Below are positions 32,970-59,232 of a stretch of DNA of 64,000 nucleotides, one piece after another. The notes beneath the pieces were generated by a model. It searched no databases and was not told where the DNA came from. It worked only from the letters and a program-made list of their open reading frames with translations. Numbering within the stretch: position 1 is the stretch's first letter; the number at the start of each line of letters is the position of its first letter. The stretch spans positions 3,286,001-3,350,000 of the forward strand of contig OX597821.1 of the NCBI GenBank assembly GCA_951406725.2. Reading direction: 5' to 3'. Source of the DNA: Octopus vulgaris. Its lineage: Eukaryota. The translations under genes were made by a program, and so were the position numbers.

Positions 32970-33582
32970 TAACCTTGTTATATACATGGCAAATTTGAGT
33001 ACAGGGAAAAATGTTACTATGAGTGTTAATAATTCACTATCGAATCACAGTAAATATCTTCTCGAGATTGCTAACAAGATGTTTCAACAAACTGCGCTAA
33101 TAGCATTTACAATCTTCCAAATTTTTCATTCCGATTTGAAATTCTCAACTTTATATTGGTTTCATTTGATGAAACTTACAATCGTGTATTCCTAAATAGA
33201 CTGATTTACCAGAATCAGTATCAATGTCAGGCTAGTTTTAAAATTATAAACGAAAAACATAAAAACTGATAAATGGTGAGAAGATTTAAACCTAATGAAT
33301 AGTGAGTAATGTCTCGTTAACGCTTTTCTGTATAGTAATTATACAAAGTAATACATTTCTAGAAGTCTACAAAATAATCAGTAATTATAATGTAAGAGAA
33401 ATTCATTAGATGGTCACTGAATTTTAATTAATTGCTGACTTTCAGTGAACAAATATCAGAGACTGGATTCAACCACCCCACTTAATATGTATGTATGTTT
33501 TGAGTGGTGCGTGTGTGTGGGACAGATGTATGTATATATGTATGTATGTATATATCCATATCTATCTATCTATCTATCTATC

Positions 33583-33638
<56 letters not shown>

Positions 33639-33644
<6 letters not shown>

Positions 33645-34100
33645 ATGGTTGTATACTGTCAATCTAACGTGAACGGGACAGTAGGGGGTTACATCACCGC
33701 TGTTTAGCCCTAGGAAGCATCGACGCCTCCTGATGACTTTGACACATTTTTCCTGTGTCCTTATATACATTTACGAAGGTGAGACAAACACCCCCAGCAG
33801 CCAGGCCTGCATCTAGAGACACGCATGTTTCAGGATCATTGTCCTTCATCGGTCTAGAATAGCAGACGCCCGTCAGCCGTTGATATCTGCCTCGACTCGC
33901 AAATGTATATATCTAACGTTCACGTTAGATTGACAGTATACAACCATTCTATCGCCCCAACACCGTACATATCTCTATGAGAGATTTACAAATTTAATAT
34001 TTCTGATTTTGGTAATCAGTGAATAAACTTCACTGAAATTAGATATATACATTTGCGAGTCGAGGCAGATATCAACGGCTGACGGGCGTCAGCTATTCTA
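33639..34100 (-). mobile_element. Hammerhead-bearing mini-element made of two inverted, circularly permuted pieces
   Basis: 33639-33675 is inverted at 33917-33953, and 33855-33916 is inverted at 34039-34100 (1 mismatch). HHR at 33812-33858. Adjacent to (TA)n(GA)n. Confidence 0.75.
33812..33858 (-). ncRNA. Minimal type I hammerhead ribozyme (CCGAUGA core)
   Basis: Minus strand reads TCTAGA CCGATGA AGGA-CAATGA-TCCT GAAA CATGCGTG TC TCTAGA. Cleavage triplet GTC. Confidence 0.8.
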
Positions 34101-34533
34101 TTTAGGTTACTTAAAATATATTTGACACATTTAGACTTCTGAAGACAAATTCACTGCTGTTACCACGGAGAAAAAATATCTTCTATTGTAAAGTCGTGAT
34201 ACAACTGTCCGGCGCTACTACCTACCAGATTGCAAGATGCATTTCTAGCTCTTTGTGATCACCGGGAAATACCGAAGTGAAGCAACTCTGAACAGAATCA
34301 ATTAAAACCGCAGCTTCAAGTAAAACACACAGAGAAACATTGAGTTTTCTGAAGGGGATTAACTAGATTAAGTAGATTAAATATATTAATCTCCTTTCTG
34401 TCAATACCTCCGATCTAAGATTTCTTCCCTGAAGACGGAAGCTGGTATTATACGACGATGGAATCAATTTAATCATTATTTTGGATCACCAGGCCTCAGA
34501 AACAGCTGCTAGACTCATAAAACTTATTAACCC

Positions 34534-35090
34534 CTTTCATCATCATTGTTCGACCGCGGTCGAGACAGTGGAATTTGCTATGTTACGCCAGACTTCGCAG
34601 TCCATCATAGCATTACGGAAGTCCTGTTGCTGGATGCCTGTATCCCTGGAGATTATATCAAGGTAGGAGAATGTGTGCCCTCTGGTATCGCGAATAGATG
34701 GCTTCCAGAGCAGAAGAGTAGGAATTGCCTCGTTTTCAGCTCTACAACAATGTCCAGCAAACTGGACTCTCCTACCTTTCACAAGAGATGACACAGGTGG
34801 TAGTTTCCCATATATTTGCATTTTGGTTGGATGGCGCTTCCACGAGAGATTTTGAGCTCTCATAAGGAAGCGAGTGTAAGTTCCATCCAACGGCCTCTCA
34901 AGCTTCTTTGATAACGTCCAGGTTTCTGAGCCATATAGTAGGATTGGTTCGACTGTGGCTTTGAAGATTTTAAGTTTGAAATCTCTACTTAGATTTGATG
35001 ACTAGATCTTATGCATATCATTACAGGCTGACCAGGCCATACCCTTTCTATTTAGAAAATCTTTTCCAGATGATGATATGTATGACCCCT
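34534..35090 (-). mobile_element. RTE-group LINE, 5'-truncated 3' fragment (RT C-terminus)
   Basis: YISSSGKDFLNRKGMAWSACNDMHKI*...KIFKATVEPILLYGSETWTLSKK...RRVQFAGHCCR...VWRN, ending in a short (TGA)n tail. Confidence 0.85.
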
Positions 35091-45195: not shown

Positions 45196-47335
45196 TCAAT
45201 CAGGTTGCCGGGTAGGTCTATAGTTCTTGTAGTTCGCATACTTCTTATGCATACAATTTGGGGAGTGTTCTGAAAATTTGTTAAGGAGAGGGCCTTTGGC
45301 GAACAAGATCTCTAGGCTCTCTGATATGCATAGGTCACAGCAGGTATGTCCTCCTGTGTACGAGCGCGCCTTCTGTAGTAGTTTCCACTTGGTCTTGAAG
45401 GGGATTGAGTTCCTTTTAAGGTACCAGATGTGGGCGGCGAGGGTAGTTTGGTTGGATTTATCCTGTCGCCGGAACGAGTGTGTATGTGCATACCAGCGGG
45501 TCTTAAAGCTGTTTGACGTCATTCCAATGTAGGATTTACTTTTATCGTCAAGGCCTGATCTTACCTCGCATTTATATACTAGGTCCCTCTGTAGGCAGTT
45601 GTTGTTGAGGGGGCAGGTGGTTTTATCATGGCAGTTGCAATTGCTATCGGACGTTGGATGGGCCCCGGAGAAAGTAGATATGTTAAGTTTTTTCACATTG
45701 TTGTTGGCTAGGTTCCTGGCTAGGTTGGGCGTGGTAGAGTAGGAGAGTCTAATAGTGTTCTTATTTAGGATAGTGTAGTACTTATGTTGGGTGGGGAAGT
45801 GTTTCTGTAGGAGAGTGAAAAAGATCTTAGCTACAGGTGTAGCGACCTCACGGTTGAAGGGGGGTTGTACCAGCTAATGTGTCTTCGTCTATTTTTCCTG
45901 GGTTGGCGTGGGGCTATACTAGTGTAGGTAATCTTATCTTTAAAACCACTGCGGGCCAGGGCCTCGTTGTAATAGGGGGCTGCGGCCTTAAAGATATCTT
46001 CCGTGGCGGACAGGCTAGAGATTCTAATTGAGACACTTTTTACTAGGTTATCTAATATATTTCTGGGGTGGTTGGAATTGATATCTATATATCTAAGGGA
46101 TTCATTTGGTTTGTGGTACGGGTAATAAAGTGAGGTTTTTAAGTCGAGGGTGACATCTAGGAAGTTAGCCTTAGTTAAGTTGGATTCTAGGGTAATCCTA
46201 AGGCCTAAGTTTTTAAAGAAGGTGTGAAGATTTTTCCGGAACCCATCCGTGGTCCTGGGGTTTATATTGTGGAGGGCGAAAAGGCCGTCATCTCGGTAAA
46301 GACCACCGGAGAGGCCTGTGAATAGGGTTTTCAGCCTATGGAGGATGAAAAGGCCCACTAGGTCACTTATTTCAGCAGAGTCGTTAGCACCCATGCTGAC
46401 GTCGAAGGGGGTCACAGATTTTTTGTTGATCCAGTGGGATCCGTCATAGAAAAGAAAAGTCTTACGTGCGTGGAGGATCACATCTTGCTCGGCCTCGGTG
46501 ATGGTGGAGGACCTCCTGGCGAAGTTAATCGCATCGATCAGCAAGCTCTCCGATATAGAGGCGTAGTAATCCTCGATATCCAGTTGTAGGAATCGGGTGT
46601 TGCTTTTATCTGGTAAATCCCGGAACCAAGTTATTGCCTCGGAGGTCCTATTCCAGAGTGGAAGGGTGAAGCTTCACGCATTTTTGGTAAAATCCTGTCC
46701 AAGATCTTCTTGCTGACGGATCCGATGTCAGACTTGGTTGGGTTGATCAAACGGACCGACGGTTTATTTTCGAAATGGTCTTTGTGGTCTTTCAGGGTGA
46801 AGTGTGGGGACTTCACCCTCAGGGGTTCTGTTCGGTCGTCGATTTTAAGGGAGGTGGCAATCTCTTTCCCGGCCAAGTTGGTTTCAGTTAGCGCTACGTC
46901 GTCTACTTTCTTGTATTTAGCTGTGATGGCGTTATCGGCTAGTCTATTATAGGTATCCGGAGTCACCGCGTAAATATTTTTTGTCTTGTCCGAAGGGACA
47001 TGGAGGTTCTGGGAGCTTTTCATTTTCGAAAGCTTCGCATTCAGTTCCGTTTGGAAAGGTAAGTTGACTCTCCTGAATTTGATGTTTTTTATCATGAGGA
47101 AGAGGTCTTCTTCAAACGGTTCAAGTAGGCTGTTGGTAGGAGGGGCCTTATTTGATTTGAAGCCGTACTTATCATTACTGGTAGATGCTACATCAGGGTT
47201 GTCGAAGAAGAAAGATCTCCATCGAATTCTTTTGATGAACTCATCAGTCCGTCTAATGAGGGCTTTTTGGTACTGTTTCCTTGGTGGGATAGTAATGTTC
47301 TTCAGGGAAGTGTCGAGGTCGATTCTTGTCAGCAT
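45196..47335 (-). CDS. PLE polyprotein: reverse transcriptase plus C-terminal GIY-YIG endonuclease (about 713 aa; two 1-nt frameshifts as assembled)
   Basis: SDKT, VRLINP, FLQLDIEDYYASI, VSMGA, GLYRDDG (YRDD at 46287-46298), NFLDVTL, SNHP, WYNPP, CNCHDKTTC, LVY...SYIGMT...FKTRW, KW, CDLC, LLNK. Frameshifts at 46664-46666 and 45859-45864. Confidence 0.93.
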
Positions 47336-50405: not shown

Positions 50406-52220
50406 TCAATCAGGTTGCCGGGTAGGTCTATAGTTCTTGTAGTTCGCATACTTCTTATGCATACAATTTGGGGAGTGTTCTGAAAATTTGTTAAGGAGAG
50501 GGCCTTTGGCGAACAAGATCTCTAGGCTCTCTGATATGCATAGGTCACAGCAGGTATGTCCTCCTGTGTACGAGCGCGCCTTCTGTAGTAGTTTCCACTT
50601 GGTCTTGAAGGGGATTGAGTTCCTTTTAAGGTACCAGATGTGGGCGGCGAGGGTAGTTTGGTTGGATTTATCCTGTCGCCGGAACGAGTGTGTATGTGCA
50701 TACCAGCGGGTCTTAAAGCTGTTTGACGTCATTCCAATGTAGGATTTACTTTTATCGTCAAGGCCTGATCTTACCTCGCATTTATATACTAGGTCCCTCT
50801 GTAGGCAGTTGTTGTTGAGGGGGCAGGTGGTTTTATCATGGCAGTTGCAATTGCTATCGGACGTTGGATGGGCCCCGGAGAAAGTAGATATGTTAAGTTT
50901 TTTCACATTGTTGTTGGCTAGGTTCCTGGCTAGGTTGGGCGTGGTAGAGTAGGAGAGTCTAATAGTGTTCTTATTTAGGATAGTGTAGTACTTATGTTGG
51001 GTGGGGAAGTGTTTCTGTAGGAGAGTGAAAAAGATCTTAGCTACAGGTGTAGCGACCTCACGGTTGAAGGGGGGTTGTACCAGCTAATGTGTCTTCGTCT
51101 ATTTTTCCTGGGTTGGCGTGGGGCTATACTAGTGTAGGTAATCTTATCTTTAAAACCACTGCGGGCCAGGGCCTCGTTGTAATAGGGGGCTGCGGCCTTA
51201 AAGATATCTTCCGTGGCGGACAGGCTAGAGATTCTAATTGAGACACTTTTTACTAGGTTATCTAATATATTTCTGGGGTGGTTGGAATTGATATCTATAT
51301 ATCTAAGGGATTCATTTGGTTTGTGGTACGGGTAATAAAGTGAGGTTTTTAAGTCGAGGGTGACATCTAGGAAGTTAGCCTTAGTTAAGTTGGATTCTAG
51401 GGTAATCCTAAGGCCTAAGTTTTTAAAGAAGGTGTGAAGATTTTTCCGGAACCCATCCGTGGTCCTGGGGTTTATATTGTGGAGGGCGAAAAGGCCGTCA
51501 TCTCGGTAAAGACCACCGGAGAGGCCTGTGAATAGGGTTTTCAGCCTATGGAGGATGAAAAGGCCCACTAGGTCACTTATTTCAGCAGAGTCGTTAGCAC
51601 CCATGCTGACGTCGAAGGGGGTCACAGATTTTTTGTTGATCCAGTGGGATCCGTCATAGAAAAGAAAAGTCTTACGTGCGTGGAGGATCACATCTTGCTC
51701 GGCCTCGGTGATGGTGGAGGACCTCCTGGCGAAGTTAATCGCATCGATCAGCAAGCTCTCCGATATAGAGGCGTAGTAATCCTCGATATCCAGTTGTAGG
51801 AATCGGGTGTTGCTTTTATCTGGTAAATCCCGGAACCAAGTTATTGCCTCGGAGGTCCTATTCCAGAGTGGAAGGGTGAAGCTTCACGCATTTTTGGTAA
51901 AATCCTGTCCAAGATCTTCTTGCTGACGGATCCGATGTCAGACTTGGTTGGGTTAATCAAACGGACCGACGGTTTATTTTCGAAATGGTCTTTGTGGTCT
52001 TTCAGGGTGAAGTGTGGGGACTTCACCCTCAGGGGTTCTGTTCGGTCGTCGATTTTAAGGGAGGTGGCAATCTCTTTCCCGGCCAAGTTGGTTTCAGTTA
52101 GCGCTACGTCGTCTACTTTCTTGTATTTAGCTGTGATGGCGTTATCGGCTAGTCTATTATAGGTATCCGGAGTCACCGCGTAAATATTTTTTGTCTTGTC
52201 CGAAGGGACATGGAGGTTCT
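50406..52220 (-). pseudogene. 5'-truncated second copy of the PLE RT-GIY-YIG ORF
   Basis: Matches 45196-47010 with the same two frameshifts. One synonymous difference noticed (46745 vs 51955). Lacks the first 325 nt of the ORF. Confidence 0.93.
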
Positions 52221-57453: not shown

Positions 57454-59232
57454 GTATGTATATAGGTATATATATATGTATATGTATGCATATTGTAAAA
57501 CATTATTATAAAAACTTGTGTGAGCATTTGGTGGTGTCATTCTACTCTGAGAAGAGAGCCAATTTGATTATCACTCTATATTTATATTATTTATATATAT
57601 TCATTGTATGCTAATATGTCGACATATATATGCATGCCTGTATGTGTTTGTTATGTGTCTATTTGCTTGAGCACACACCCAGACGCACGTACACACACAC
57701 ACATGTGAAGGAGAGAAGGAGAGAAAGAGCTATCAATATATATGTAAATGTGGCATTACACTTAGGATTAAATGAAAATGAAGTAAAGTGAATGGAGGAG
57801 GCAGTCATATATTTCAAAATTTGTAGTCATTAATTTGTAGCCATTAGCTGTGCAGTCCAGAGGTTTATTCTTTCGCCAATCGAAATCGATTCACTTAACG
57901 TACAAGTTATATGTCGCGTCCTCCGAGACTATTCATATGATAAATGCCTTGTTTTAATGCTACCAACTGTGTTTTATATTCATGCAAAGTGCCTGCTATT
58001 ACTTCAATACGTTCTTTGATAAAATAGCTAATGGGTGATTTTAAAATCCTGTTTAGTTGTAATTTATCTGGAAGTTTCCCATAATTTCGCGAACACTATA
58101 AATATTTTAGTACGCAAATGAAATTGATTTGATGTAAAATAATCCATTCGATTTACTTGTATTTCTGTCTTATAGTGGAGAGATATTTTCATACATAGAG
58201 TAATCGATTATAAAATGAAAGTTTCTGATAGTAGTACTTAGATGTTTTTAGTCGGTGTGTAGCACCCTAAGTAACTACTAACTTAAGCCGATGTTATTTA
58301 TATTGTTTCTTCGTAAATTTTGATTAGTCGTACATATTAAAGATTATAAGTTCTAAAGATGGTATTTGTGGTGGCTTAGTTTAGAAAATGTTCCATTATT
58401 TATCTTGTATAAAGTGATAAAATTTTATAGCGCATTCCCATGACATGCTTCTACTTCAATATTCATACAATCAAACAAAATTTTATGTGAACAAACGCTA
58501 CACTTTACAAGGATCACTGAAATCGTCCTCCCCTCGTCGATGTTAAAACTAAATCATGTATTTTATATATTACATTGCAAATTTAAGTCAAACAGTGGCT
58601 TAGTGATATAAAATCGTGTTATACATGTTATAATCAATGCTTTCACTACTTACTGAAGCTGGTTATTGCCGCTTTAGGCTTTTATTTTTCAGTGAATTTT
58701 GTTCACAAATTACGACGTTAACAAATTTTATTTTCAAATAACCGCAGAAGATTGTTTTCACGTACTCCAAGGCCAAATTGCGGTCACAGTTTTTTAATGG
58801 CTTATTCATCAGTATATTAGAGGTGAATATGTAAGGTGATAGAATTATAATGAAATTAGTTTACCAAACCGTATTAACAAGTCGTCTTTGGTCCGCACTG
58901 ACTTTAAACACACTCAGGCTCTAAGCAAACACTTTTCTATAATATGAATGTCAGTGAAATAAGGAGCATCTGCCTCATCACAGGATTTACAAAACAGAGC
59001 TATGAATTTACTCTTCATATTCCAGACTAACGTCTTAAACTGCTGTCGACAGCTATTTAAGATAAAGAAATATTCAATAAGGATTTCTCAATAACAACCT
59101 GAATGAAAAGTATAGAGACGATTAATCCTGTGTTCATTTCGTCAGGGCTGACTGGGCTTAACATCAAATGCAAGAAATAAATTAGGCACCATTTCCACAC
59201 TCCAAAGCGATGAAAAATCACAATCATAACAA

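What the first reader, a model, noticed from the sequence alone, without database searches (positions are those of the whole stretch)
33639..34100. Two inverted pieces that close into a circle of about 363 nt containing a hammerhead
Seen: the minus-strand piece reads B'-HHR core-A' (33916 to 33639) and the plus-strand piece reads A'-C-B' (33917-34100). Joining the overlaps gives the circular order B'-HHR-A'-C-B' of about 363 nt. Inference: the insertion was copied from a circular or tandem template, as proposed for non-LTR retrozymes of similar size. It has no ORF.
Basis: partly seen in the sequence, partly recalled or inferred. Interest (0 to 1): 0.75.

Follow-up and report, generated by a model that had tools for sequence, protein, structure and literature searches.

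The report
Broken two-armed hammerhead retrozyme insertion
This is one damaged copy of a small non-coding repeat with a predicted self-cutting RNA motif that sits at hundreds of places in this animal genome, usually as two back-to-back arms ending at two fixed points, a footprint that likely comes from a Penelope-type retrotransposon enzyme copying an RNA circle, though neither cutting nor circles have been shown.

Summary
Observation confirmed: the overlaps are 37/37 and 61/62 nt and give a 363-nt unit. True tandem copies (period 363-366) exist elsewhere in the genome, and a 24-nt hammerhead word occurs 296 times. The overlaps are incidental, though. Of 93 loci mapped, 59 are two head-to-head arms (none tail-to-tail), and 50 of those 59 end at unit position ~277 on one side and ~332 on the other. 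They lie mostly in TA-type microsatellites, and 13 show clear 10-14-bp target duplications. This is the known Penelope 'inverted repeat plus tail' signature. The window copy keeps the 277 end but lacks the right outer end, second ribozyme and duplication, so it cannot itself release a monomer. 116 of 151 arms read through the predicted cut site, so the template was uncut there. A circle is favoured over a tandem transcript, but neither is shown. The core carries U4C, fixed in the family. Active Penelope-like elements exist here, but no partner with homologous ends was found. Verdict: new member of known animal non-LTR retrozymes. This scan noted the same two-arm pattern before in other families, two of them in this genome.

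The parts
33639..33916 (-). Left arm: unit positions 1-278 (position 1 = 33916), ending at the family's fixed outer end T1 (~277)
   Evidence: nearest mapped relative L011, 2.2% different
33812..33858 (-). Type I hammerhead: stem I 33858-33853 with 33817-33812; core CCGAUGA 33852-33846; stem II 33845-33832; GAAA 33831-33828; stem III 33828-33819; C17 33818; predicted cut 33818/33817
   Evidence: stem pair 64:100 is G-C in 81 and A-U in 37 of 121 units
33752..33916 (-). Predicted long rod hairpin (unit ~1-165) with the hammerhead at its tip
   Evidence: circular fold of the 363-nt unit, z -6.4 against 60 shuffles; natural L091 unit z -10.2
33917..34100 (+). Right arm: unit 242-363 then 1-62; stops inside the 5' strand of stem I, with no second ribozyme, no fixed outer end and no target duplication
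33954..34007 (+). The ~55-nt 'tail' between the two fixed ends T1 (~277) and T2 (~332); internal in this copy
   Evidence: outer-end tallies of 151 arms
33561..33638 (.). (TCTA)n(TA)n(GA)n microsatellite, the likely target at the intact end
   Evidence: 71 of 93 loci have a low-complexity flank on at least one side by a crude test
34101..34343 (-). Abutting older repeat of another family (65-84% over aligned stretches of 15 relatives, mostly 65-77%), whose relatives carry a U3-A8 hammerhead-like motif; not part of the insertion

Best explanation
The stretch is a truncated copy of a dispersed 363-365-nt hammerhead-bearing repeat family whose insertions are mostly two head-to-head arms ending at two fixed points, and it was likely written into the genome by a Penelope-like (RT + GIY-YIG) enzyme copying a likely circular RNA from both ends of one DNA cut. 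Steps. (1) Inferred: a locus with two or more tandem ribozymes is transcribed, cut into a monomer and ligated into a circle, as shown for coral, mussel and axolotl retrozymes. (2) Inferred from the footprint: the endonuclease makes a staggered 10-14-bp cut in TA-rich DNA. (3) Shown as a pattern, inferred as chemistry: one DNA end primes reverse transcription at unit position ~277 and the other at ~332. (4) Shown: each arm runs a variable distance (median 332 nt, up to 1223 nt), straight through the ribozyme cut site. (5) Inferred: the two cDNAs join in the middle, often at short palindromic microhomologies. (6) Inferred: this copy lost its right outer end, most simply by a deletion reaching to the end of an older neighbouring repeat, so it is a dead end with one ribozyme. 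Odds: retrozyme family with Penelope-type insertion about 0.87; circle rather than uncut tandem RNA about 2:1.
For: 296 exact matches to a 24-nt core word, against 0 for the reversed control. 93 distinct loci mapped: 59 head-to-head, 0 tail-to-tail, 33 single-orientation, 1 complex. 50 of 59 pair a T1 end with a T2 end, 1 is T2/T2, 0 are T1/T1, and 8 have an off-site end (p 2e-14 for 50 of 51). Clear 10-14-bp duplications at 13 of 93 loci, e.g. L003, L026, L082, L099. The same architecture is described for PLEs (PMC3846280, PMC8557442 passages), and a purified PLE extends both strands and starts at two internal sites that bound the tail (PMC11167929). Two intact PLE families in this genome (781-aa frame with RVT_1 and GIY-YIG hits; 775-aa frame, all 76 scored matches listed at 100% identity) also have two ends about 31-36 nt apart followed by (TA)n. 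Template uncut: 116 of 151 arms cross the cut site, and inner ends are not enriched there (6 against 4.6 expected). One source per insertion: 37 of 37 classifiable loci are of one subfamily; arm-to-arm mismatch is 374/15448 against 18137/227967 for random pairs; L091 shows 0 of 474 arm-arm and 0 of 597 tandem mismatches. For a circle: both subfamilies have multi-ribozyme arms, yet no array longer than 3.4 units was among the 40 best of 2053 candidates. Junction overlap >=2 nt in 28 of 59 loci against 100 of 396 simulated (p 0.001).
Against: No autonomous element with ends homologous to this family was found among 100 PLE-type loci (the one weak hit was an adjacent, related retrozyme), and no intact PLE ORF joined to the repeat in 160 loci. 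The tail is ~55 nt, against 30-40 nt in the literature and ~31-36 nt in the two PLE families seen. The core has U4C in 124 of 128 units, a change reported to lower activity in vitro considerably (PMC3088659 passage), and 8 of 9 Xenopus retrozyme dimers did not cleave in vitro (bioRxiv 2026.07.22.740005). In the Anolis PLE, uncut RNA was the dominant substrate and cleavage was not needed, which favours a linear template. Within-locus mismatch (2.4% arm-arm, 2.9% tandem) is no lower than the distance to the nearest other locus (2.1%), so identity alone does not separate circle from tandem. A long master array could be collapsed in the assembly or missing from the 40 scored candidates. This copy has no duplication and its junction has no microhomology, so steps 2, 5 and 6 rest on the family, not on this locus.
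Confidence: 0.6

Rival explanations
1. Same Penelope-type double priming, but the template is an uncut linear tandem (read-through) transcript. The weak U4C ribozyme rarely cuts and circles play no part.
For: U4C core. Uncut RNA is the main substrate of the Anolis PLE. Tandem loci of 2-3 ribozymes exist to supply such RNA. No call shows a circle.
Against: Arms copied from a linear array can only be as long as their parent, so arrays should shrink, yet both subfamilies have 2-3-ribozyme arms with all pieces of one type (37 of 37 loci). No long master array among 40 scored candidates. The core and a compensatory stem I pair are kept across subfamilies.
Confidence: 0.27
2. These are terminal repeats (pLTRs) of an autonomous Penelope-like element, left as truncated, partial-tandem and inverted pieces, not an independent non-coding element.
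For: The architecture is that of PLEs, and retrozymes are proposed to derive from pLTRs.
Against: Arms pass from the tail directly into the next unit for up to 3.4 units with no ORF. tblastn of two PLE proteins against 160 loci gave only an adjacent PLE at L191 and a 58-residue piece in the flank of L003.
Confidence: 0.06
3. LINE-type twin priming on one RNA: an ordinary 5' inversion in which the inverted piece begins where the direct piece ends. This is.
For: In this copy the right arm starts 37 nt from the left arm's end, and RT-like LINE frames lie nearby (family label recalled).
Against: Across 50 loci the inner end of one arm lies within 15 nt of the other's outer end in 4 and 4 cases, against 4.3 expected. 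Both outer ends are fixed, there is no poly(A) or tandem 3' tail of the element's own, and duplications are 10-14 bp.
Confidence: 0.04
4. DNA-level inversion or duplication of a satellite, or an assembly artefact.
For: The copy lies beside microsatellites and other old repeats, and no read spans it in the runs laid.
Against: 59 to 0 orientation bias, fixed paired ends and target duplications at dispersed loci on many contigs.
Confidence: 0.03

Closest known systems
Animal non-LTR retrozymes (Cervera and de la Pena 2020, PMC7229834; mussel 350-390 bp, axolotl 330/350 bp, coral 220-245 bp)
   Same: Non-coding 363-365-nt unit, 43.5% GC, one type I hammerhead per unit, tandem copies, strongly self-paired predicted fold, duplications longer than 4 bp, PLEs in the same genome.
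   Different: Dispersed, short (at most 3.4 units seen) head-to-head insertions with two fixed ends rather than plain tandem arrays ('inverted' occurs 0 times in that paper's main text). U4C core. Cleavage and circles not shown here.
Endonuclease-containing Penelope-like elements (PMC3846280, PMC8557442, PMC11167929)
   Same: Inverted 5'-truncated arm, tail at only one end, head-to-head orientation, (TA)n targets, duplications of about 8-14 bp, hammerhead in the repeat.
   Different: No RT or GIY-YIG ORF; tail ~55 nt rather than 30-40; ribozyme with full stems I-III rather than a minimal one; both arms are pure repeat.
Retrozymes as non-autonomous PLE derivatives (Li, Clavereau, Pollet 2026, 10.64898/2026.07.22.740005)
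   Same: Same proposed relationship.
   Different: That work rests on co-occurrence and pLTR homology in Xenopus. Here the link is the insertion footprint, and pLTR homology to a PLE was looked for and not found.

Membership tests
Animal non-LTR retrozyme | Tandem non-coding unit of 150-450 nt with one type I hammerhead per unit | tested here: met
   Period 363-366; 8 arms with 2-3 full ribozymes among 93 loci. Met by the family, not by this single copy.
Animal non-LTR retrozyme | No LTR, PBS, PPT or coding ORF; GC below 50% | tested here: met
   GC 0.435; no conserved frame; no tRNA primer-binding site was searched for specifically.
Animal non-LTR retrozyme | Conserved hammerhead core and stems | tested here: inconclusive
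   C3 128/128, C17 130/130, compensatory pair 64:100; 117 of 125 complete cores intact if C4 is allowed, but only 4 have U4. Positions 67-90 are biased by the search word. No Rfam match.
Animal non-LTR retrozyme | Self-cleavage of the transcript | not testable with these tools
   Needs in vitro transcription.
Animal non-LTR retrozyme | Accumulates as a monomeric circular RNA | not testable with these tools
   Only contigs of runs guessed to be RNA were available.
Animal non-LTR retrozyme | Target duplication longer than 4 bp when present | tested here: met
   10-14 bp at 13 of 93 loci; absent at this copy.
Autonomous Penelope-like element | RT plus GIY-YIG ORF between pLTRs | tested here: not met
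PLE-type insertion footprint | Inverted head-to-head arm, tail at one end only, TA-rich target | tested here: met
   59 to 0 orientation; 50 of 59 T1/T2; 71 of 93 with a low-complexity flank.
PLE-type insertion footprint | Sequence homology to the pLTR of an autonomous partner | tested here: inconclusive
   None among 100 PLE-type loci, out of 6136 first-look GIY-YIG candidates.

The most novel reading that the evidence does not exclude
A Penelope-type enzyme dimer primes both ends of one DNA cut on a single closed 364-nt RNA, one subunit at each of two fixed sites 55 nt apart, and rolls past a deliberately weakened (U4C) hammerhead that keeps the circle shut. The strict one-of-each end rule would then be a genomic record of rolling-circle twin priming, explaining the PLE 'tail plus inverted repeat' and naming the mover of animal retrozymes.
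Probability: 0.35. Interest if true: 0.7.

Novelty: new member of a known kind. Interest (0 to 1): 0.45.

Why it matters
That PLEs mobilise animal retrozymes from circles has been proposed since 2014-2020 without a mechanistic footprint in the papers I read. Here an ORF-less ribozyme repeat follows a near-strict rule (one arm from each of two fixed sites, head-to-head, one subfamily per locus, reading through the cut site). That gives exact RNA start sites and candidate enzymes for an in vitro test of circle against linear template, and of how PLE tails and inversions form. The copy in the window is itself only a broken example.

Tried and rejected
Rfam: no match at gathering score in the window, and only chance microsatellite-like hits at E<=10. 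RNA: no listed holder is on record as RNA. Contigs of runs guessed to be RNA lie on most of the unit (25, 25, 24, 27 of 30 bins of the window stretch; 27, 23, 28, 7 of 30 bins of L091) but cannot show strand, level or circularity, and related families contribute; not used as evidence either way. Partner search: 50 GIY-YIG loci and 50 more PLE-type loci gave no homologous pLTR. Remainder of the right arm: not found elsewhere in the window (a 27-nt hit at 58687-58713 looks unrelated). Chimeric co-insertion with 34101-34343: rejected because that piece is old (mostly 65-77% to 15 relatives) while the two arms differ by 1 of 99 nt. Negative correlation of arm lengths (rho -0.52, n 32): reproduced by selection alone (p 0.09-0.29), dropped. 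Spacing of the two inner ends is uniform (KS p 0.55). Inner ends cluster at 59-60 (7 of 151), probably palindrome microhomology plus selection; not pursued. A 91-nt fold of the ribozyme alone is not better than shuffles (z -0.9) and does not give the hammerhead fold. Short hidden second arms at the 33 single-orientation loci: only about 2 plausible (L015, L074). Seven duplicate loci were dropped before counting (100 mapped, 93 distinct); loci L001-L030 were chosen by score and lean towards inversions, and the position-chosen set alone gives 38 head-to-head of 66, 33 of them T1/T2. Look-up of earlier findings by sequence was empty.

Full report
Observation. The two inverted overlaps are real: 37/37 and 61/62 nt, giving a 363-nt unit. 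A type I hammerhead lies on the minus strand at 33858-33812 with the predicted cut at 33818/33817. Its core is CCGAUGA rather than CUGAUGA, and Rfam does not detect it, so the call rests on motif anatomy and family conservation.

The family. The window lies in a 2.8-Gb genome of 227 contigs; from size, AT content and microsatellites I guess a cephalopod, which no call of mine shows. A DNA search gave 2318 first-look candidates, 40 scored. A 24-nt core word has 296 exact matches (148 per strand) and 0 for the reversed control. I mapped 100 loci on the unit (30 chosen by score, 70 by position from the 100 listed matches); 93 are distinct.

Architecture. 59 of 93 loci are two arms head-to-head, none tail-to-tail, 33 have one orientation and 1 is complex. 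Outer ends fall at unit position 268-280 (T1) or 318-342 (T2) in 142 of 151 arms, with peaks at 277 (48) and 332 (46). Of the 59, 50 have one T1 and one T2 end, 1 has two T2 ends, none has two T1 ends, and 8 have an off-site end. Inner ends are spread over the whole unit, and their spacing is uniform. Thirteen loci show clear 10-14-bp target duplications; 71 of 93 have a low-complexity, mostly (TA)n, flank where a duplication cannot be judged. Junction overlaps of 2 nt or more occur in 28 of 59 against 100 of 396 simulated junctions, often at CTAG-type palindromes.

This is the footprint described for Penelope-like elements: an inverted 5'-truncated copy, a tail at only one end and microsatellite targets (PMC3846280, passages; PMC8557442, passages). 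A purified lizard PLE cuts and extends both strands and starts at two internal RNA sites that bound the tail (PMC11167929, parts 1-2 of 4). This genome has young intact PLEs: a 781-aa family with RVT_1 and GIY-YIG hits and a 775-aa family whose 76 scored matches are all listed at 100% identity. Both end at two sites about 31-36 nt apart before (TA)n (11 long and 9 short among 20 copies of the second). LINE-type twin priming does not fit: the inner end of one arm is near the other's outer end in 4 and 4 of 50 loci, 4.3 expected. Against the reading, no PLE with ends homologous to this family was found in 100 loci.

The template. 116 of 151 arms cross the cut site, 10 of them two or three times, and inner ends are not enriched there (6 against 4.6). 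The RNA copied was therefore continuous across the ribozyme. All pieces of a locus belong to one of two subfamilies in 37 of 37 classifiable loci (9 diagnostic sites). Arms of a locus differ by 2.4% and tandem units by 2.9%, against 8.0% for random pairs and 2.1% for the nearest other locus. Rare alleles are shared in 27/15448 arm-arm and 25/9387 tandem comparisons, against 22/37428 for nearest loci and 13/227967 for random pairs. Both arms thus come from one source, perhaps one molecule. A circle is favoured by inference: both subfamilies have multi-ribozyme arms although the median arm is under one unit, and no array beyond 3.4 units was among 40 scored of 2053 candidates. A linear uncut tandem RNA is not excluded; it was the main substrate for the lizard PLE. 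The unit folds far better as a circle than shuffles (z -6.4 for the window-derived unit, -10.2 for L091).

The ribozyme. C3 is kept in 128 of 128 units and C17 in 130 of 130 (both outside the search word). Stem I pair 64:100 swaps between G-C (81) and A-U (37), and stem III can extend to 4 bp. Position 4 is C in 124 of 128. U4C is said to lower activity considerably in vitro while allowing viroid infectivity (PMC3088659, passages). A slow ribozyme would suit a circle that must stay closed, but it equally suits a template that is never cut; this is inference.

This copy. The left arm ends at T1 against a (GA)n/(TA)n tract. The right arm runs from 242 to 62 of the next unit and stops in stem I, with no T2 end and no duplication. 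It abuts an older repeat at 34101-34343 within a few bases of what looks like that family's natural end. A deletion is the simplest cause; aberrant priming is possible (9 of 151 arms have off-site ends). With one ribozyme it cannot release a monomer. The A and B overlaps are a by-product of where this junction fell.

Comparison. It fits animal non-LTR retrozymes (PMC7229834, passages and parts 2-4 of 6; PMC7761336, passages), whose circles were shown in coral, mussel and axolotl and whose mobilisation by PLEs was proposed. PMC4209133 (parts 1-2 of 4) already noted paired ribozymes on opposite strands 100-700 bp apart in Schistosoma and proposed circular PLE templates. The 2026 preprint (parts 1-3 of 5) links retrozymes to pLTRs by homology. 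I found no paper describing paired fixed ends in retrozyme insertions or this family in five searches; most subscription papers, Repbase and Dfam were not searchable, and supplements were not read. Earlier notes of this scan describe the same two-arm pattern in other units, including 355-nt and 490-nt units in this genome. I saw them after reaching my reading, and did not check them.

Verdict. A real, broken copy of a new family of a known kind. The value lies in the family footprint, which makes the PLE-and-circle hypothesis directly testable. Interest 0.45.

Noticed in passing
L129:1-300, L191-L210: A young related family (about 61-65% to this unit, period 362, copies 95-98% alike, 2734 first-look candidates) with the same head-to-head arms and two ends; its hammerhead has the U3-A8 core covariation.
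   Followed up: partly
L161-L190, L212-L214: A second related family (69-86% to this unit, period about 350; 250 exact matches to a 19-nt word) with ends at the same T1 and T2 positions. My motif scans found no hammerhead in it; not resolved.
   Followed up: partly
L141-L156: Young 781-aa Penelope-like family whose ~1-kb terminal repeat holds a minimal U3-A8 hammerhead-like motif ending in the same GAAACAUG as the retrozyme, with an optional ~36-nt tail.
   Followed up: partly
L248-L277: Very young 775-aa Penelope-like family, tandem period about 4270 bp, head-to-head pairs, ~31-nt tail; likely still active.
   Followed up: partly
window 34101-34343: Old repeat (one relative shows a period of about 237) whose relatives carry a U3-A8 hammerhead-like motif and some inverted pairs.
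   Followed up: partly
window 34386-34540: Another repeat family (75-86% to its relatives, some as inverted pairs) whose relatives carry a CCGAUGA...GAAAC motif with a long stem II; three ribozyme-like repeats thus lie side by side.
   Followed up: partly
window 34543-35001 (-): 152-aa frame resembling the C-terminal end of a LINE (RTE-like) reverse transcriptase; label recalled, no Pfam hit.
   Followed up: no
window 46011-46634 and 51221-51844 (-): Two equally scoring weak RT-like hits 5.2 kb apart, suggesting a tandem or duplicated retroelement.
   Followed up: no
L071:2336-4021: A copy of the family split by a ~1.66-kb secondary insertion with a 14-nt overlap at unit 34-47; L092 also ends at 48, so this may be a target site for another element.
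   Followed up: no
L291:2554-3286: A further relative, 70-77% to this unit, again in two orientations.
   Followed up: no
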